Shown here one piece after another: positions 6,489 through 14,278 of a stretch of 64,000 bases of DNA. Below the pieces are notes generated by a model that saw nothing but the letters and a program-made list of their open reading frames with translations, was not told the DNA's origin and searched no databases. Origin of the DNA: Naegleria gruberi (Eukaryota); NCBI GenBank assembly GCA_000004985.1, contig GG738885.1, one strand, 5' to 3'. Numbering within the stretch: the stretch's first letter is position 1; every line of letters starts with the position of its first letter. Position numbers and translations under genes: made by a program.

Positions 6489-7013
6489 TTGAATATTCAG
6501 TTTCTCTTTTTCTTGAAGAACTGCTTTCAAAAGAATATTAAGAAGAAAAAAATAGAAAAAAACAAGATGAGCATTCAGTGTAGACTTCAGAAAGGTCAAC
6601 AAGATTCGAATATTATTCAAGATGACACATTAATGCAAATTTTTAACCAAACTAAACATAACAAAAAGAAGATTATCAAACAGAACGAACAACAATTCGT
6701 ATGGAAACGATTCAATACATTATTCATTGATTATTTTCAAGAACCAAAAACAAAACGAAAGACATCTGACATTAGCAAACAAGAAATTTTAAAAGTATTA
6801 CATCTTACTCAAAGACAGGCATGTAAACAACTTGGATGTACATTATCCACAATGAAAAGAAGATTTTACGAATTGAAATCTGATCTTGGTTTGAAATGTT
6901 GGCCACAGAATTATAATGAAATTTGTAACTTGCCAATATTTCCAAAAATTTATCCATTGAGTTTGAGTTTTATCTTGAATGCTTCAAATGACGAAACGAG
7001 TAAATCTGAATGA
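6489..7013 (+). CDS. Small RWP-RK-like domain protein, paralogue 1 of a 4-gene tandem array
   Basis: The C-terminal domain ...ISKQEILKVLHLTQRQACKQLGCTLSTMKRRFYELKSDLGLKCWPQNY...IFPKIYPLSLSFILN aligns with the RWP-RK core (L..L...AA..LG...T.LKR.CR..GI.RWP.RK). The real start is probably the internal Met at ~6564. Confidence 0.6.
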   Translation: MNIQFLFFLKNCFQKNIKKKKIEKNKMSIQCRLQKGQQDSNIIQDDTLMQIFNQTKHNKKKIIKQNEQQFVWKRFNTLFIDYFQEPKTKRKTSDISKQEILKVLHLTQRQACKQLGCTLSTMKRRFYELKSDLGLKCWPQNYNEICNLPIFPKIYPLSLSFILNASNDETSKSE

Positions 7014-7825
7014 ATGATTCAGGATTATCAACTTGACCAAAAATCAGTCACATGCCAATCCATCAAAAAAAACCAACTTGCTAACAATAATCATCAATAA
7101 AATGTAAATAAACACAATCTTAACTCTTTCCAAAATATAAAAATTTAATTTTTTTCATTAATAAATCCAAAAAACAACAATTAAGCACACAACCAATCTC
7201 ATAGACAAAAATACAGAACTATTTGACTCACTATTTAAAATTGGACATGCAAGTTTGGTTGTTCCACTAAAACTATATAAAATTAAAGAACCTCTTTCTG
7301 ATTCACCAACAAATTTCAAAGTTGGTTTTTCAGGACAGTAAAAGAAGGAGTGTCAACTGTATGTGTATTGATCTTGCTAATAATTCATCCACTAATAATT
7401 GGAAGAATTGGAGAAACTCATACCCTGGACTCTTCATTATTTCCAATAAGAAACTCTTCGAGTATCATCAGACGTAAAATTGACTTGTTTTTTTAGTTTG
7501 AAATCTGTTGATTAAGTGAGCGATATTTGGCCCTAGTTCCAACTTAGTACGAAATCAAATCACTATCATTTCGAATAGGGTAATTTCGAATAACCTATAG
7601 GAAATGTGATTCATTGCATCTATGACTATCATGTAAATCTCTCTATTACTTAAAAATACAACAAAATTAGCATAATAGATTTTGTATTGTGGTTGATGGC
7701 ATTTCAAAGCACATCAGTTTGACATTTGGATGTAATTGTTACCTCTCTGTAGATGTCATTGCACCTAGTTGCAATAACTGTTCTGAATATTCTGAATATT
7801 TTTATGAATAATAAAAACAAACAAA

Positions 7826-8236
7826 ATGAGCTCTGTAAATAATTCCACCATGATTAGAGACACTTTGACAATGCAAATATTTGGCTCAGCAAAATCCACG
7901 AAAAAGGGCAAAATTCAATCAGCTTCTGACTGTCAATTTGTTTGGAAGAGAGTTGACACAAACTTTGGTGTATTTTTCTTGGAGAAAGATCTCGAATTTA
8001 GGTCAAAAAGAAAGACAACTGACATTAGCAAACAAGAGCTCATTAAAGTTTTACATCTTTCTCAAAGACAAGCTGCCAAATCATTGAATTGTACATTATC
8101 AACATTGAAGAGAAGATTTTATAATTTGAAAGAAGAATTTGGAATGTCAACATGGCCAAAGACATTTAAGGAAATAAGTCACCTGCCAATTTATCAGAAA
8201 ATGTATCCAATGTCTTTGAATTTCATCCTCAATTAA
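7826..8236 (+). CDS. Small RWP-RK-like domain protein, paralogue 2
   Basis: ...ISKQELIKVLHLSQRQAAKSLNCTLSTLKRRFYNLKEEFGMSTWPKTF...IYQKMYPMSLNFILN. Same domain and same orientation as the other array members. Confidence 0.65.
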   Translation: MSSVNNSTMIRDTLTMQIFGSAKSTKKGKIQSASDCQFVWKRVDTNFGVFFLEKDLEFRSKRKTTDISKQELIKVLHLSQRQAAKSLNCTLSTLKRRFYNLKEEFGMSTWPKTFKEISHLPIYQKMYPMSLNFILN

Positions 8237-9069
8237 CTGAAAATATTCCAACATACATGCTTGCAGTAACTTATCATGTGCAAGAGATGAAAATTATCAA
8301 CCTACGTTGACAAGTAGACGAAACTTTATTTGCCAGAAATTGGACAAACTTTAGATTTAAAATTCCATGAAATGTAATTAAATGTAATTAATGAATAAAT
8401 TGTTGGACGAACGAAACAAATGTATTGAACACATGCCCTTGTTAGTTGTTTTCTCACTAACTATTCGAAAAGCGTCAACCAAGATATATTGAGCTCCATA
8501 AATTTCACCTCTTTGATACATCAATACTAATACAGAGATTATATTTACTATTAGTGGATCTATCCTCCTCAATGTCTAGTTCATGTAGTATTGTTGAATA
8601 TTCATTAGCACAGATAGTTGTCCTGTTCTTCACTACTGAGTAGAATGCAAGATTAAAGTGTTTGTACATGTACTAATGGTATTTCGTCTATCGTTATTGG
8701 AAACATGAAGTTTAAACATAAATCATGAAATAGGCAAGAGGAATTACATACCTCCCTTTCCAATCTCCTTTTACATCATGAGAGGCTTTTATAAAAACCT
8801 CCTTTCTAATTCGATTTTGATTCGAACAACTTGTTAGAAACTGATTTGGAGTAAACTTGCAATTTTGTATGAAATTTGGCAAAGGCCGAGGATTGAGCCA
8901 ACAAAGCTACTGGAATATTGTTGTTCCTGCTGTTCTCAAAATGTCAACATCTTTACCTAGTTGACATTTAAGGAAAAACGACAAGAGACATATTTTTAAT
9001 AAGGAAACTATTATGACCAGAAGAAAGAATGGAAAGTTATCATTCTGTTCATTTAACAACCATTAAAAA

Positions 9070-9546
9070 ATGAACAGACAAGCTACCGGCATTACCAAAC
9101 AATCCAAACGAAACAATAGTTCACTTTCGAATAACCGATTCCATACAACGCATGTTTCGTCATCCACTTTTCCCAACACCCAAACAACCTCTCCACTCTC
9201 CAACACCATTTCCTCCTCCCAAATCATCTGGAAACAAGTCAACTCTCCCTCTGGAAAATACTTTAAAGAAAGCGCGCCAAAAGATTACCGAAAGTCCAAA
9301 ACCATTTCACAAGACGAAATGATTCGTGTATTGCATTTATCCCAAATTCACGCCTCAAAAATCCTGAATTGCAGTTTATCGACATTGAAGAGAAGATTCT
9401 ACGAATTGAAAAACAATTTTGGGCTCAAGTCGTGGCCTCAATATTTTAGAGAGGTGAGACATTTGCCGATTTTTAAGCAAATGTATCCGATGAGTTTGAC
9501 ATTTATTTTGAATGTTGATGAGGAAAAGGTGGTGAATGAGGAATAG
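9070..9546 (+). CDS. Small RWP-RK-like domain protein, paralogue 3
   Basis: ...ISQDEMIRVLHLSQIHASKILNCSLSTLKRRFYELKNNFGLKSWPQYFREVRHLPIFKQMYPMSLTFILN. This is the member closest to paralogue 4. Confidence 0.7.
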   Translation: MNRQATGITKQSKRNNSSLSNNRFHTTHVSSSTFPNTQTTSPLSNTISSSQIIWKQVNSPSGKYFKESAPKDYRKSKTISQDEMIRVLHLSQIHASKILNCSLSTLKRRFYELKNNFGLKSWPQYFREVRHLPIFKQMYPMSLTFILNVDEEKVVNEE

Positions 9547-9972
9547 TTGAGATTAGGTTTAGAATAGAGATAGTTCTGTAATTTTTGAAGAATATGGAAG
9601 ATAGATGAGAGAATATTTGTAAAATAATTTATTAATAAATCAATTGAAAACTGTAGATTTACAATTGTTGTGTTGCCAAATAATTCAAATAAAGCAATGA
9701 AGGTTTCGGAAAGTCAACCGAAACTATGTGAGAAAGTCCATCAATTAAGAAAACTCTTTACAAAACAAATATTGAGATGGAATGCATTCCCTACCCATTC
9801 TGCAAATCAAGGTTACGAAAACACAATATTCTGCAATCAACATCCATTCAAAGATCTGAGAATTTCTTAAAAGGAAAGATTCTCTGATTGACGGCTGCCA
9901 ACAGTCACAGAAATCAATAAAAGCAATTAAATTGGGTCCATCTCTCGCTTTTTAAAATCCAACCATCAGTTT

Positions 9973-11486
9973 TTGATATCTCATTCAATAACATTAAAAA
10001 AAATGGTCAACCATCTCATAATCTTGTCACTTGCCATTCTACTATTCATTTCCTCAATTTCCTGCCACATGGAAATGAAACTTCCCTCCCCACGTAAAAC
10101 ACTTCCAACAGGTGGCACCGATTACGATATGAGTTCTCCCCTAGGAGCTCAGAAACCATTTCCATGTGGTGGCAAAACCTCACTCTCCTCAATTACCACC
10201 TGGAATGCAGGTGAAACTGTTACAATCAATATCGAAGGTGGTGCCCCTCATGGTGGTGGACATTGTCAGTTTGCAATCTCTCCTCGAAGTGATCAGAAGA
10301 GGTGGATTGTTTTGGCTGATAATTTGGGAAGATGTCCATTGGATAAGAATTATTCATTCAAATTGCCAGGTGAGGTTCCAAGTGGAGATTATGTGTTTGC
10401 TTGGACTTGGATTAATGCTGTTGGAAATAGAGAGTAAGTAGTAATGGAATAGTTTGGTTTCTAATATTTTTAAGATATTACATGAATTGTGCTGATGTGA
10501 GAATTAACAATGGAGGAACTAAATTTGAAGGTAAACAACTCCTAGTAGCCAACATTCCAGATCCAAATCTTTCAGGATCATCCGTTTATTTCATTGGAGA
10601 AATTGGTGAATTCCCAAATAATCCAACTTTTGCAACTGACAAATTTCCACAAAGACCTGCTCTGACATTGACAGCAAGTGGAATTCAAGGAGGTGGAGGC
10701 GGAGGAGGCACAAATCCAACCAACCCAACCAATCCTACAAATCCTGGAATGAACAGCACTTGTAATTATTTCCTTGTTTCAGGAGATACCTTAAATGCAA
10801 TTGCTTCCAGATTTGGAACTACCTTATCTGTTATATATTCATTGAATCCAACAATTACTGATCCTACCAAGTTGCAAGTTGGTGATAAAGTTGTGTATCC
10901 ATGTTCTGGTCAATCTAGCGGTGGTTCTGGAAATACAGGTGGTGGCAGTTCAGGAAATGGAAATGGCTCTGGAACTACCAATACTTTTGGCTGTGTCTAC
11001 TCATGGACAATCATCTCAAAATTCAATGATACTAAATTAGGATTCATTGGAAAATTAAATGTCCAAACAAGTCTCGCACAGACAAACTGGAATATTGCAT
11101 GGACATTCCAAAAAGGAGGAATTTCTGCATTCAAATTGAGTAGCCAAACTTTGACATCTTCTGCACTTTCTCAGGTTGCTATTAAGGGAGAAACTCAAAT
11201 TGAAGCAAATAAGGTCATGTCCATTACGGTTTTCGGGGTTGGCGGAGTTTCAGATTCAGAAGCATTGTTTGTGAATAATGAGAGATGTACCAAGTCATCG
11301 AGTGCTGATTTTGAACAAACTAGTAATTCAGCTCCGGTGTTGGATTGCAAGTCAACTCCGACAAATTGTAAAGATTCATGTTTGGAACAGTATAATCAAT
11401 ATTGTGCTAGCTCTGGAATTGTAATTTGGAGGGGAATGAGTGCAATTATGACTGGATTGTTGATGATTTATTTGTTTGTATTGTAA
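9973..11486 (+). CDS. Secreted LPMO-like (N-terminal His, AA11/AA9-type motifs) + LysM domain protein with C-terminal GPI-anchor-like signal; 2 exons (intron ~10434..10474)
   Basis: Signal peptide MVNHLIILSLAILLFISSISC is followed directly by HMEMKLP, a His-1 as in LPMOs. A second His lies in HGGGHCQFAIS. Exon 1 ends ...VGNRE at a GTAAGT donor (10434). Acceptor AG at 10473-74 joins in frame to YYMNCADVRI (AA9/AA11-like Y..CA[QD]). Then come a G/TNP linker, a LysM domain (CNYFLVSGDTLNAIASRFGTTLSVIYSLNPTI...LQVGDKVVYPC), a G/S linker, a Cys-containing module and a hydrophobic C-terminus. Confidence 0.6.
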
Positions 11487-11774
11487 ATATAAAGATTCTT
11501 ATTGGAATAGTTTAGAATAGTCATGTTTCTTTTATGAAATGGAGATTTTTAGGTGAAGAGATGGCATGGAAAAGGAAATAGTTGAAATTTAACCAAAGTG
11601 TCATATTAATACTGAAATTGTTTAATTATGAATAATAGTTGACAGATTGACATTTAAGGATGCATCAAGGAATGTCATGAATTTTAAAAAAGGTATTTAA
11701 AATATTATACGAAACCTTACCTCACTTTTTAATGTTAGACAGAACACATTTCAAAGAAACCTAAACGAAAAACA

Positions 11775-12230
11775 ATGAACAGAAACCAAGCCACTTCAAC
11801 ACTTCCAAATACAACTTATCAGAAAGCAGACGAAACTTTAGATTCCCAAGTTATGATGAATGTCTTTAAAAAGAACAATAAACAAAATACACCCACCATG
11901 CAACAATACAACCAAATAATTTGGAAACGAATTGATACTCCAGTTGGTTCCTTTTTCAAAGAAGCTCCACTTTCGAATAGATCCAAACGAAAGACACAAC
12001 AAATCAGCAAAAAAGAAATGCTACAAGTGTTGCATCTTCCTCAAAATCAAGCAAGTAAATTACTCGATTGCAGTTTATCCACATTGAAGAGAAGATTCTA
12101 CGAATTGAAAGACGATTTTGGACTAAAGTCTTGGCCTCAATGTTTTGCAGAAGTGAGGCATTTGCCAATATTTCGTCAAATTTATCCAATGAGTTTAGAT
12201 TTCATATTGAATACCCATGAAAAAATGTAG
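11775..12230 (+). CDS. Small RWP-RK-like domain protein, paralogue 4
   Basis: ...ISKKEMLQVLHLPQNQASKLLDCSLSTLKRRFYELKDDFGLKSWPQCFAEVRHLPIFRQIYPMSLDFILN. Confidence 0.7.
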   Translation: MNRNQATSTLPNTTYQKADETLDSQVMMNVFKKNNKQNTPTMQQYNQIIWKRIDTPVGSFFKEAPLSNRSKRKTQQISKKEMLQVLHLPQNQASKLLDCSLSTLKRRFYELKDDFGLKSWPQCFAEVRHLPIFRQIYPMSLDFILNTHEKM

Positions 12231-12426: not shown

Positions 12427-12765
12427 TTACAAATTATTACGGTGACAATGTTGCAAACATGAAATCTTGTAATCCCCAGTACTTCCAGCACAATACTTTG
12501 AACAATCAGATCCTTGTGAATCACTCAATGAAGAAATCAAATCAAGCAACTTTTTACTTGCCTTCTTCTTCAACTTTCTAATACTTGGGAACAATTTCTT
12601 GACGATTTGACTATCAGAGGAATTAGGATACATTCTACGAATAATATCTCTCAAAAGAGAAACAGAGTTGGATGATTTTTCTTGTTGTTGTTGTTGAGCA
12701 CTAACAGCACAGGCAAGCAAGAAAACCAAAGCAAGGACAATACAGAAAGAAATCTTATTCATATT
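12427..12765 (-). CDS. Small secreted Cys-containing protein (~113 aa)
   Basis: An internal Met begins a classic signal peptide, MNKISFCIVLALVFLLACAVSA. Mature part has QQQQQ, basic patches and 6 Cys. The upstream part of the 154-aa ORF is probably untranslated. Confidence 0.45.
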   Translation of the reverse strand, partial: NMNKISFCIVLALVFLLACAVSAQQQQQEKSSNSVSLLRDIIRRMYPNSSDSQIVKKLFPSIRKLKKKASKKLLDLISSLSDSQGSDCSKYCAGSTGDYKISCLQHCHRNNL

Positions 12766-13108
12766 GTTTAATTTTTTCAGAATGTTTAGAATAGAAATGA
12801 AATAGTTGTTGAAATTTAAAGGAAAATCACTATTCAACGTGCAAATTGGAAAAGAAATGTGTGTTTCAAGAGTGTACCGGTATTCTCTCATGTTCTGTTG
12901 TATTCTGGTAATATTGTCTTGATAATTGGTAAGATTACAATCAACATTGTAAATGAGTTTAATTAAACTGGTATGGATCTATCTTGTGTAGACGAAACTT
13001 TCCAATTGAGGGACAATGTTGGACCCAGTAACAGAAAGCTTATCACACAAATTATCACTCTCTAATTATCATGATAATACTTGAGTAAAAATAATTTGAT
13101 TTGAACAT

Positions 13109-14278
13109 TTATTGCTCAAAATCTGTCAGAACCTTAAAGTGAAGTAGGAAACTATCAACCTTTCCCTCCAACTCATCATAATAGTATTGATATGATAGGA
13201 ATGGGCATGGTGAATTCTTTTCACCACTCGAATAAATCTTCTTCAATGTTTTGATAAATAGATCAGATTCATATTTGATGTGTTTTCTGAATTGATTATC
13301 TTCATTAATTAAAGGAGTTTGATGTATTTTGAATTTGAATGCATCTTCATGAATTCTTTCGTCTAATAATTTACAAATACTCGTCAGTAATTTCTCACTA
13401 GTAATAAATCGATGACAATCCACAAAATTAATGGATTTTACATTATATTTCAATAATCCGACACATCTTTCCATCTCCTCTCGATTCAAATTACGTTGTC
13501 CCTCCTTTTTCAATGTAATTTTGTAACATGGAAGTACTAACTTATTTGGCTTTTCATCCCAATGTAAATAATCTTCAGATTCATTTAAATGATTTACATT
13601 CTTTGCCAAGCAATTGGCACAATTTGCAGTTTCACTTAAAATACTATTCAAAGCAACACATCCTTTCGAAAAGGCAACTAAATTCAGTTGAACATGTTGC
13701 TGATTTTCCCCAACATTTCTGCCAAATCCTTCATTCGGAAATAAATTATCCAAAATCTCGAATAGAACAGCATTTGCATTTCCCTTCACATAGAAATTCT
13801 CATATTCATAAATAAAACTCGATAAATCCAAAGTATTTGGTTGAATAATCACTAATCCACTCGTTTCTGGATACTTTCTATACAATATATCTAATACATG
13901 TTCATAATAAACCTCCATCACTCTTCCATTTTCATCATCATCAAAGCTTGACTCGAATGGATAATCCACCTGCAAATATTTCATAAAATCATTCAATCTC
14001 AATTGAATATCCCCAGGAAAAAAGATTGTATACTCCTTCTTTCCATTATTTCCATCATTCTTTTCATGATCAACAACAATATTAGTACTAATATTATTTA
14101 ATATTGAAATTTCTTCTATCCGATCATCACTACTAATCAATTTTAAATTATTGGCGGGAATCCATGAGGGAGAAAAGTAATGAACAATTTGTTGTCGATT
14201 TTCAGAGAGTTTTAATATTTTGGTTCGTATGAAGGAACCTGCTTTGCCAAAGAGAAACGTTGCAGGTGCTTTAGACAT
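13109..14278 (-). CDS. Hypothetical protein (389 aa), no domain recognised
   Basis: Long uninterrupted ORF with non-repetitive composition. Confidence 0.55.
   Translation of the reverse strand: MSKAPATFLFGKAGSFIRTKILKLSENRQQIVHYFSPSWIPANNLKLISSDDRIEEISILNNISTNIVVDHEKNDGNNGKKEYTIFFPGDIQLRLNDFMKYLQVDYPFESSFDDDENGRVMEVYYEHVLDILYRKYPETSGLVIIQPNTLDLSSFIYEYENFYVKGNANAVLFEILDNLFPNEGFGRNVGENQQHVQLNLVAFSKGCVALNSILSETANCANCLAKNVNHLNESEDYLHWDEKPNKLVLPCYKITLKKEGQRNLNREEMERCVGLLKYNVKSINFVDCHRFITSEKLLTSICKLLDERIHEDAFKFKIHQTPLINEDNQFRKHIKYESDLFIKTLKKIYSSGEKNSPCPFLSYQYYYDELEGKVDSFLLHFKVLTDFEQ

What the first reader, a model, noticed from the sequence alone, without database searches (positions are those of the whole stretch)
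6489..12230. Tandem array of four small genes with a degenerate RWP-RK domain (W-P kept, flanking R/K lost)
Four same-strand paralogues (136-174 aa) share a C-terminal ~75-aa block (FVWKR...ISKQE[IL]LKVLHL[ST]QRQA.K.L.C[ST]LST[LM]KRRFYELK..[FL]G[LM]K.WP[QK]....[IV]..LPI[FY].[KQ][IM]YP[ML]SL.FILN). The segment L..L...A...L.C.LST.KRRF.EL...G.K.WP is recognisably the RWP-RK DNA-binding motif. The eponymous R-W-P-x-R-K is replaced by K-[CS]-W-P-[QK]. The N-termini are divergent and low-complexity. This is a lineage-specific, rapidly diversifying mini-family of putative transcription regulators, interrupted by an unrelated secreted-protein gene.
Basis: partly seen in the sequence, partly recalled or inferred. 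Interest (0 to 1): 0.7.

Follow-up and report, generated by a model that had tools for sequence, protein, structure and literature searches.

The report
Four small Naegleria RWP-RK regulator genes
Four neighbouring genes of the amoeba Naegleria gruberi encode small, basic helix-turn-helix proteins that are divergent but ordinary members of the RWP-RK transcription-factor family, which is already known to be greatly expanded in Naegleria.

Summary
The window is Naegleria gruberi. It carries four intact + strand paralogues of 148, 136, 158 and 151 aa that share a ~100-aa C-terminal block. An AA11-LPMO/LysM gene interrupts the array. The first gene starts at ATG 6567, not TTG 6489.

"Rapidly diversifying mini-family" is not supported:
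- Synonymous sites between paralogues are saturated.
- Orthologue dN/dS is 0.13 or lower in the block.
- The g2-g3 order is conserved in another Naegleria.

The motif degeneracy is not special to these genes. Across 53 subfamily sequences the residue before W-P is K, R or other, and R-K is replaced by aromatics. Oomycete RWP-RKs show similar relaxation.

RWP-RK is already tabulated as the third-largest Naegleria transcription-factor family (39 in N. gruberi).

What distinguishes the subfamily is a fixed 4-residue insertion before W-P and a 22-residue linker to an S-L-x-F-I-L-N motif.

Verdict: new members of a known kind, low interest.

The parts
6567..7013 (+). g1, 148-aa RWP-RK paralogue (NAEGRDRAFT_70552, XP_002674177); conserved block 6693-6980
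   Evidence: ORF; exact match to the annotated 'predicted protein'; Pfam RWP-RK E 4.3e-5
7826..8236 (+). g2, 136-aa RWP-RK paralogue (NAEGRDRAFT_70553, XP_002674178); conserved block 7934-8233; ends at FILN
   Evidence: (E 9.8e-7, 29.0 bits); orthologue in L001 with dN/dS 0.18 overall and 0.13 in the block
9070..9546 (+). g3, 158-aa RWP-RK paralogue; conserved block 9220-9513; this exact product is not in the 15-billion-protein collection, so it is unannotated or modelled differently
   Evidence: (E 5.1e-4); the start of its orthologue lies downstream of the g2 orthologue in L001
11775..12230 (+). g4, 151-aa RWP-RK paralogue (NAEGRDRAFT_70555, XP_002674180); conserved block 11913-12212
   Evidence: (E 3.5e-6); AlphaFold model with a beta-hairpin at 50-63 and helices at 79-85, 90-96 and 101-115, pLDDT 94-96; 97.8%-identical allele in L002 with 0 non-synonymous changes in the block
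8835..9069 (+). Conserved upstream region of g3 (putative promoter and 5'UTR). It contains the palindrome ATGTCAAC-N11-GTTGACAT (8941-8967) and TTGACATTTAAGGA (8961-8974)
   Evidence: 74% identity to L001, while the rest of the g2-g3 spacer cannot be aligned; motif
7719..7727 (+). TTGACATTT, 107 bp upstream of the g2 ATG
11647..11660 (+). TTGACATTTAAGGA, 128 bp upstream of the g4 ATG. It is identical to the 14-mer upstream of g3, and these are the only two exact copies in the window
10003..11486 (+). Interrupting gene, not part of the family: signal peptide, AA11-type LPMO domain starting at His, LysM domain, Ser/Gly/Thr-rich region and a hydrophobic C-terminal tail; 41-bp GT-AG intron at 10434-10474
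   Evidence: PDB 7p3u E 4.3e-32; 4mah E 8.4e-18; Pfam LysM E 1.1e-9

Best explanation
The four genes are old tandem duplicates encoding small (136-158 aa), basic (pI 9.5-10) DNA-binding proteins of the RWP-RK transcription-factor family. They belong to a Naegleria/Willaertia subfamily.

Predicted layout of each protein:
- a disordered, poorly conserved N-terminus;
- a short beta-hairpin (Q-I-I-W-K-R...F-F-K-E);
- a basic K-R-K arm;
- a three-helix helix-turn-helix core, whose third helix (S-L-S-T-L-K-R-R-F-Y-E-L) is invariant across heterolobosean RWP-RK proteins and is the likely DNA-reading helix;
- a buried W-P turn;
- a conserved tail (Q-x-F-x-E-x-R-H-L-P-I-F-x-x-x-Y-P-M-S-L-x-F-I-L-N).

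Inferred, not shown: the tail packs on the core or forms a partner interface. The proteins bind DNA in the nucleus, probably as homo- or heterodimers with other RWP-RK paralogues on the same core element. Because they lack long effector regions, they would modulate or compete with larger family members. A 9-14-bp element conserved about 110-130 bp upstream of g2, g3 and g4 suggests common regulation or autoregulation.

Shown here: homology, predicted fold, purifying selection, age and synteny. Not shown: DNA binding, dimerisation and biological role.
For: Homology:
- Pfam RWP-RK is the best hit for all four genes and for 29 of 29 subfamily members.
- HHalign of the subfamily against above-cutoff RWP-RK proteins gives 99.8% probability, E 1.3e-28, with the 4-residue gap and the S-L-x-F-I-L-N motif aligned.

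Fold:
- The AlphaFold helix-turn-helix core has pLDDT 94-96.
- Weak sequence hits go to NtrC/Fis helix-turn-helix domains.

Selection and age:
- Block dN/dS is 0.13 in the g2 orthologue comparison (0 non-synonymous changes in the g4 block against its near-identical allele) and 0.17-0.22 where it could be computed between paralogues.
- g2-g3 order and the g3 promoter are conserved between species.

Other:
- The proteins are basic, pI 9.5-10.
- TTGACATTT lies at -107, -109 and -128 from the ATG of g2, g3 and g4. Five of the seven window copies fall inside the 5.7-kb array.

Literature:
- 39 RWP-RK transcription factors are tabulated for N. gruberi, and same-subfamily N. fowleri DNA-binding domains are listed (PMC8296547 supplement).
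- NLP4 and NIN bind semi-palindromic elements as dimers (PMC8364233).
- W and P are predicted to be buried scaffold residues, and R1 and K6 are variable in oomycetes (PMC7399023).
Against: - None of the four genes reaches Pfam's curated cutoff on its own (20.3-29.0 against 29.3 bits).
- The name-giving R...R-K residues are absent, so altered or lost DNA contacts cannot be excluded.
- No expression data were found for these genes.
- The promoter motif was found post hoc. Its relaxed 14-mer version is not enriched in the window.
Confidence: 0.85

Rival explanations
1. The proteins are DNA-binding-defective decoys. Having lost the R and R-K residues flanking W-P, they no longer bind DNA. They would act only by titrating larger RWP-RK partners, in the way Id proteins act on bHLH factors.
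For: - The flanking basic residues are replaced by C, S or T and by aromatics.
- The proteins are very small and have no recognisable effector region.
- MID acts through heterodimers with VSR1 (PMC10629530).
Against: - The predicted recognition helix S-T-L-K-R-R-F-Y and the upstream K-R-K arm are invariant and under strong purifying selection.
- The same substitutions around W-P occur in large subfamily members of 300-740 aa.
- R1 and K6 are also relaxed in oomycete RWP-RKs.
Confidence: 0.1
2. The proteins are cell-type or mating-type switches like volvocine MID. Small RWP-RK-only proteins would redirect a larger RWP-RK partner and so specify a differentiation state, for example cryptic gametes, flagellates or cysts.
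For: - The architecture matches MID: a small protein with a conserved C-terminal RWP-RK domain and a variable N-terminus.
- MID works through its N-terminal domain with VSR1.
- Naegleria has a full set of meiosis genes (PMC8296547 supplement).
- The array shares an upstream element.
Against: - There is no evidence of orthology to MID.
- There are no data on strain-, allele- or stage-specific presence or expression.
- All four genes sit among ordinary housekeeping-type neighbours.
- Small size is common across this 53-member subfamily.
Confidence: 0.08
3. The block is a non-coding repeat or a set of decaying pseudogenes, with open frames arising by chance.
For: - The genome is AT-rich, and one copy (g3) has no matching protein in the collection.
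Against: - All four frames are intact.
- Indels are in multiples of three.
- dN/dS is well below 1.
- Orthologues are intact in other Naegleria.
- The g3 promoter is conserved.
Confidence: 0.01

Closest known systems
Naegleria RWP-RK transcription-factor expansion (Herman et al. 2021, BMC Biol, PMC8296547, Additional file 5)
   Same: Same family and the same subfamily signature. The N. fowleri domains listed there (for example g10375 and g10377...VLHLSQ.QACK.L.CS.STLKR.F...K.ELGM.KWP.Y) match the window proteins. In N. fowleri two such genes also lie about 2.8 kb apart on one strand with an unrelated gene between them.
   Different: The paper gives only a count (39) for N. gruberi. These four genes are not named there and are 'predicted protein' in NCBI. 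The tandem quartet appears to have orthologues only in close relatives of N. gruberi (P0003, P0004, possibly P0005).
Chlamydomonas/Volvox MID (minus-dominance RWP-RK protein)
   Same: A small protein made of a variable N-terminus and a conserved C-terminal RWP-RK domain. MID acts with a larger RWP-RK partner.
   Different: MID keeps the canonical motif, as far as I know. No orthology, sex linkage or partner has been shown here. The window proteins add a 4-residue insertion and the Y-P-M-S-L-x-F-I-L-N tail.
Plant NLP/NIN and RKD proteins (canonical PF02042 members)
   Same: A homologous helix-turn-helix core of the form L..A...LG...T.LKR....G...WP. Dimeric binding to semi-palindromic DNA is the known mode.
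   Different: There is no PB1 or GAF-like domain (Pfam). R-W-P-x-R-K is reduced to W-P. The proteins are far shorter. The subfamily profile gave only 230 hits at E<=1e-3 among 1.84 billion representatives. The 150 listed hits, apart from the 23 that lack the motif pattern, carry the heterolobosean-type S-T-L-K-R-R-F-Y helix rather than the plant-type sequence. The library has no taxonomy, so the absence of plant proteins is inferred.
Oomycete RWP-RK proteins (Yin et al. 2020, PMC7399023)
   Same: A non-plant expansion of 12-15 genes per species, some clustered in the genome. R at position 1 and K at position 6 of the motif are less conserved, and W-P is predicted to be buried.
   Different: A different lineage, and no S-L-x-F-I-L-N tail is reported.
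Bacterial Fis/NtrC (HTH_8), GerE/NarL and LysR helix-turn-helix domains

Membership tests
RWP-RK domain family (Pfam PF02042) | Match to the PF02042 profile at or above the curated gathering score (29.3 bits) | tested here: inconclusive
   g2 scores 29.0 bits, g4 27.3, g1 23.8 and g3 20.3. All are below the cutoff, but all are the best hit, with E 9.8e-7 to 5.1e-4. An earlier Pfam version is recorded as hitting g2 and the g4 cluster.
RWP-RK domain family (Pfam PF02042) | Demonstrable homology to proteins that pass the family threshold | tested here: met
   HHalign of the 29-member subfamily against 20 heterolobosean RWP-RK proteins gives 99.8% probability, E 1.3e-28 over 99 columns. All 20 of the latter hit PF02042, and P0038 scores 35.7 bits, above the cutoff.
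RWP-RK domain family (Pfam PF02042) | Conserved R-W-P-x-R-K hexapeptide | tested here: not met
   Only W-P is kept. The sequences are K-C-W-P-Q-N-Y, S-T-W-P-K-T-F, K-S-W-P-Q-Y-F and K-S-W-P-Q-C-F. In 53 subfamily sequences the residue before W is K in 20, R in 15 and another residue in 18, and R-K never follows. The literature shows R1 and K6 are dispensable in oomycete members.
RWP-RK domain family (Pfam PF02042) | Helix-turn-helix core with the W-P turn before a fourth helix | tested here: met
RWP-RK domain family (Pfam PF02042) | Sequence-specific DNA binding and transcriptional regulation | not testable with these tools
   This needs EMSA, DAP-seq or reporter assays.
NLP/NIN subfamily | C-terminal PB1 domain and N-terminal GAF-like nitrate-responsive region | tested here: not met
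   Pfam finds no second domain in any of the four proteins, and at 136-158 aa they are too short.
MID-type sex determinants | Small protein with a C-terminal RWP-RK domain and a divergent N-terminal interaction domain | tested here: met
   The alignment and dN/dS values show a conserved C-terminal block and a relaxed, disordered N-terminus. The comparison with MID rests.
MID-type sex determinants | Residence in a mating-type or sex-determining region, limited to one type | not testable with these tools
   No population, haplotype or mating data are available for Naegleria.

The most novel reading that the evidence does not exclude
The quartet is a co-regulated battery of MID-like minimal RWP-RK proteins. 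By heterodimerising with larger Naegleria RWP-RK factors that carry the same invariant recognition helix, they would switch a developmental programme such as a cryptic sexual or gametic state, amoeba-to-flagellate conversion or encystment. The conserved TTGACATTT(AAGGA) element and the palindrome upstream of g3 would be the family's own binding site, giving an autoregulatory loop.
Probability: 0.08. Interest if true: 0.7.

Novelty: new member of a known kind. Interest (0 to 1): 0.25.

Why it matters
There are three modest points of interest.

First, the result shows that three N. gruberi 'predicted proteins' and one gene absent from the protein collection are RWP-RK-type regulators.

Second, it defines a Naegleria/Willaertia subfamily signature that Pfam's model only half covers. 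The signature is a fixed 4-residue insertion before W-P, a 22-residue linker and an S-L-x-F-I-L-N tail. This explains why such genes fall just under the annotation threshold.

Third, the family keeps an identical recognition helix across dozens of paralogues, so specificity must come from partners or from regions outside the helix. That makes Naegleria a possible system for studying combinatorial RWP-RK action outside plants and algae, where these factors control nitrogen responses and gamete identity.

None of this overturns current understanding.

Tried and rejected
- Fold search against AFDB50 was unavailable, so the model could not be compared with predicted plant or algal RWP-RK structures.
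- A PDB sequence search with the family profile found no solved RWP-RK structure, only weak NtrC/Fis hits at E 0.2.
- The look-up of encoding contigs had no record for g2 in the reference assembly. Context therefore came from the window itself, L001 and L002.
- Searching the Herman et al. supplements for the four domain sequences and for N. gruberi identifiers found nothing. Only N. fowleri genes are itemised there.
- The gene and protein accessions occur in no paper of the library.
- A neighbour-joining tree of the 76-aa block grouped g3 with g4 but not g1. g2 was dropped because it ends at FILN. The block is too short to trust, so common origin of the quartet rests instead on the shared N-terminal similarity and query coverage.
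- The palindrome pattern TGTCAA-N-TTGACA, the 8-mer GTTGACAT and the 14-mer with up to 3 mismatches are not enriched window-wide. TTGACATTT is not found upstream of subfamily genes in other loci. Only the exact 9- and 14-mers upstream of g2, g3 and g4 stand out.
- Paralogue dS is saturated, so paralogue dN/dS values are only rough. Orthologue comparisons were used instead.
- Reading the block as a non-coding repeat or as pseudogenes was rejected.
Full report
**1. What is there**

The window is AT-rich (30-37% G+C) and comes from a 362,555-bp scaffold of Naegleria gruberi. Three of the four predicted products match N. gruberi proteins exactly:
- g1 is NAEGRDRAFT_70552 / XP_002674177.
- g2 is NAEGRDRAFT_70553 / XP_002674178.
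- g4 is NAEGRDRAFT_70555 / XP_002674180.

All three are annotated only as 'predicted protein'. The 158-aa product of g3 is not in the 15-billion-protein collection, so it is unannotated or modelled differently.

The ORFs lie on the + strand at 6567-7013, 7826-8236, 9070-9546 and 11775-12230. The eukaryotic start is ATG 6567, giving 148 aa. tblastn with the g4 block finds exactly four copies in 64 kb (E 9e-35 to 4e-67) and no decayed fifth copy.

The shared block runs from Q-[FI]-[VI]-W-K to F-I-L-N and is 96-100 aa long. It has 45 invariant alignment columns. The proteins are basic, with pI 9.5-10.0.

**2. Coding and selection**

Between paralogues the synonymous sites are saturated (pS 0.60-0.86). 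Non-synonymous divergence in the block is 0.22-0.30, giving dN/dS of about 0.17-0.22 where it can be computed, and 0.47-0.71 in the N-termini.

Two unsaturated orthologue comparisons are more informative:
- g2 against a Logan contig from another Naegleria-like organism (L001, 80% nucleotide identity): dS 0.93, dN/dS 0.13 in the block and 0.32 in the N-terminus.
- g4 against a 97.8%-identical metagenome allele (L002): no non-synonymous change in the block and 4 in the N-terminus.

L001 also carries the start of a g3 orthologue downstream of the g2 orthologue. About 230 bp upstream of the g3 ATG is conserved (74% identity), while the rest of the spacer cannot be aligned.

The array is therefore old, syntenic between species and under purifying selection. 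'Rapidly diversifying' does not describe it. Only the disordered N-termini are relaxed.

**3. Family assignment**

PF02042 (RWP-RK) is the best Pfam hit for all four proteins. The values are E 9.8e-7, 3.5e-6, 4.3e-5 and 5.1e-4, and 29.0, 27.3, 23.8 and 20.3 bits, against a curated cutoff of 29.3. The hits cover profile positions 1-43 of 49, which means the match stops just after W-P.

A profile search returned 49 relatives from N. gruberi (other scaffolds), N. lovaniensis, N. fowleri, Willaertia magna, Acrasis kona and metagenomes. Some are already named 'RWP-RK domain-containing protein'. All 29 members of the close subfamily hit PF02042, best E 1.8e-8.

Profile-profile comparison of this subfamily with 20 more canonical heterolobosean proteins (…L-S-T-L-K-R-R-F-Y-E-L-G-x-G-R-W-P…) gives 99.8% probability and E 1.3e-28. 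All 20 of those proteins hit PF02042, and P0038 scores 35.7 bits, above the cutoff. Homology to RWP-RK is thus established, even though each window gene alone falls just under Pfam's threshold.

**4. What is and is not special about the motif**

The exhaustive search of 1.84 billion representatives found 230 clusters at E<=1e-3 and 38 at E<=1e-30. Among all sequences retrieved, 53 (including g1-g4) carry the Y-P-M-S-L-x-F-I-L-N-type tail. These 53 show the following:
- The distance from K-R-[RK]-[FY] to W-P is 11 residues in every one, against 7 in most other heterolobosean RWP-RKs. This is a fixed 4-residue insertion.
- The residue before W-P is K in 20, R in 15 and another residue in 18.
- The two positions that are R-K in the canonical motif are mostly aromatic (Y-F, F-Y, N-Y, D-Y).
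- Lengths range from fragments to 742 aa.

Even the 89 other pattern-matched hits almost never have R-K after W-P-x. Loss of the flanking basic residues is therefore a property of the whole heterolobosean radiation, not of this quartet.

Yin et al. (PMC7399023) report the same relaxation of R1 and K6 in oomycetes, with W-P predicted to be buried.

The S-[LM]-x-F-I-L-N core of the 'C-terminal extension' also occurs, after a variable linker, in the more canonical heterolobosean proteins, including those of Acrasis. What is specific to the subfamily is the insertion plus the fixed 22-residue linker Q-x-F-x-E-x-R-H-L-P-I-F-x-x-x-Y-P-M.

**5. Structure**

AlphaFold2 was run on the 29-sequence alignment with g4 as target. 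Mean pLDDT was 74. The model has:
- a disordered residue range 1-45;
- a beta-hairpin at 50-63 (block pLDDT about 88);
- three helices at 79-85, 90-96 and 101-115 (pLDDT 94-96);
- W-P at 120-121;
- short helices at 124-127 and 133-136 (pLDDT 80-89).

The invariant segment S-L-S-T-L-K-R-R-F-Y falls on helix 3, the usual recognition helix. It is identical across both heterolobosean alignments.

**6. Context in the literature**

Herman et al. 2021 (PMC8296547, Additional file 5) tabulate RWP-RK as the third-largest transcription-factor family in Naegleria, with 39 genes in N. gruberi and 26-27 in N. fowleri. They list N. fowleri DNA-binding domains with this subfamily's signature. One RWP-RK gene is up-regulated in mouse-passaged N. 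fowleri.

In N. fowleri, two subfamily genes (356 aa and 208 aa) lie on one strand about 2.8 kb apart with a UDG gene between them. Loosely tandem, interrupted arrays therefore recur. The four window genes themselves appear in no paper of the library.

**7. How it most likely works**

Shown: homology to RWP-RK, a predicted helix-turn-helix fold, basic charge, constraint, age and synteny.

Inferred:
- The proteins bind DNA through helix 3 and the K-R-K arm.
- W-P is a structural turn.
- The tail, and perhaps the hairpin, complete the domain or form an interface.
- Because dozens of paralogues share one recognition helix, specificity probably comes from dimer partners and flanking regions, as for NLP4/NIN dimers on semi-palindromes (PMC8364233) and MID-VSR1 (PMC10629530).
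- Lacking long effector regions, the four small proteins may modulate or compete with larger paralogues.

There is also a lead on regulation. The 9-mer TTGACATTT sits at -107, -109 and -128 from the ATG of g2, g3 and g4. A shared 9-mer in at least 3 of the 4 upstream regions has a shuffle mean of 0.05. Five of the seven window copies lie inside the array. The exact 14-mer TTGACATTTAAGGA occurs only upstream of g3 and g4. Upstream of g3 it forms the palindrome ATGTCAAC-N11-GTTGACAT, which is partly kept in L001. This was found post hoc and is only a candidate cis-element.

**8. Rivals**

- A DNA-binding-dead decoy role is possible but disfavoured, because the recognition helix is invariant and large family members carry the same substitutions.
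- A MID-like cell-type switch is the most novel reading not excluded. Architecture is its only support.
- A non-coding repeat or pseudogene origin is refuted.

**9. Verdict**

The evolutionary gloss ('rapidly diversifying mini-family', 'R/K lost' as a speciality) is not. These are new, partly unannotated members of a known and already tabulated expansion, with a definable subfamily signature. Interest is low (0.25).

Noticed in passing
window 10003-11486 (+), intron 10434-10474: The gene that interrupts the array encodes a signal peptide followed directly by His and an AA11-type LPMO domain (PDB 7p3u E 4.3e-32; 4mah E 8.4e-18). This is followed by a Gly/Thr-Pro-Asn linker, a LysM domain (E 1.1e-9), a Ser/Gly-rich region and a hydrophobic C-terminal tail, which may be a GPI or membrane anchor. 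The AA11 papers returned by the search (e.g. PMC8668981) describe AA11 as a family of fungal LPMOs, and no paper in the library links AA11 with Naegleria. A heterolobosean AA11-LysM protein may deserve its own look, either as a horizontal transfer or as a wider distribution of the family.
   Followed up: partly
window 7719-7727, 8939-8974, 11647-11660: TTGACATTT lies at matching distances (-107, -109, -128) upstream of g2, g3 and g4. The exact 14-mer TTGACATTTAAGGA occurs only upstream of g3 and g4. Upstream of g3 the motif forms the palindrome ATGTCAAC-N11-GTTGACAT. This is a candidate shared cis-element.
   Followed up: partly
window 9070-9546 (+): The 158-aa product of g3 is absent from the 15-billion-protein collection, while g1, g2 and g4 are present as NCBI proteins. 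g3 seems to be unannotated or modelled differently in the reference annotation, even though it has a conserved promoter and an orthologue in L001.
   Followed up: partly
L005 6045-7236 and 10001-10627 (N. fowleri GCA_008403515.1, VFQX01000051.1): Two genes of the same subfamily (356 aa and 208 aa) lie on one strand, separated by an unrelated UDG/GRF zinc-ribbon gene. This is the same loosely tandem, interrupted layout as in the window.
   Followed up: partly
alignments A2 and A3 (heterolobosean RWP-RK proteins): The recognition-helix segment S-L-S-T-L-K-R-R-F-Y-E is essentially invariant across dozens of paralogues and several genera. Many members also have a short hydrophobic, strand-like motif (for example K-L-x-F-[VIH]-x-x-[ED]) 10-25 residues upstream of the basic arm. 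AlphaFold models this motif as a confident beta-hairpin in g4. I found no description of this N-terminal element.
   Followed up: no
L002, L003, L004 (ENA ERZ929261 / ERR1078381, PRJEB11402): A public 'metagenome' assembly contains multi-gene contigs 97.8% identical to N. gruberi NEG-M. The sample therefore holds a closely related Naegleria strain that could be used for polymorphism-based tests.
   Followed up: no
window 13109-14278 (-): The neighbouring gene encodes a C2orf69-family protein (Pfam PF10561, E 2.2e-12). The small ORF at 12427-12891 (-) has an internal hydrophobic segment of signal-peptide type and several cysteines, and no Pfam hit.
   Followed up: no
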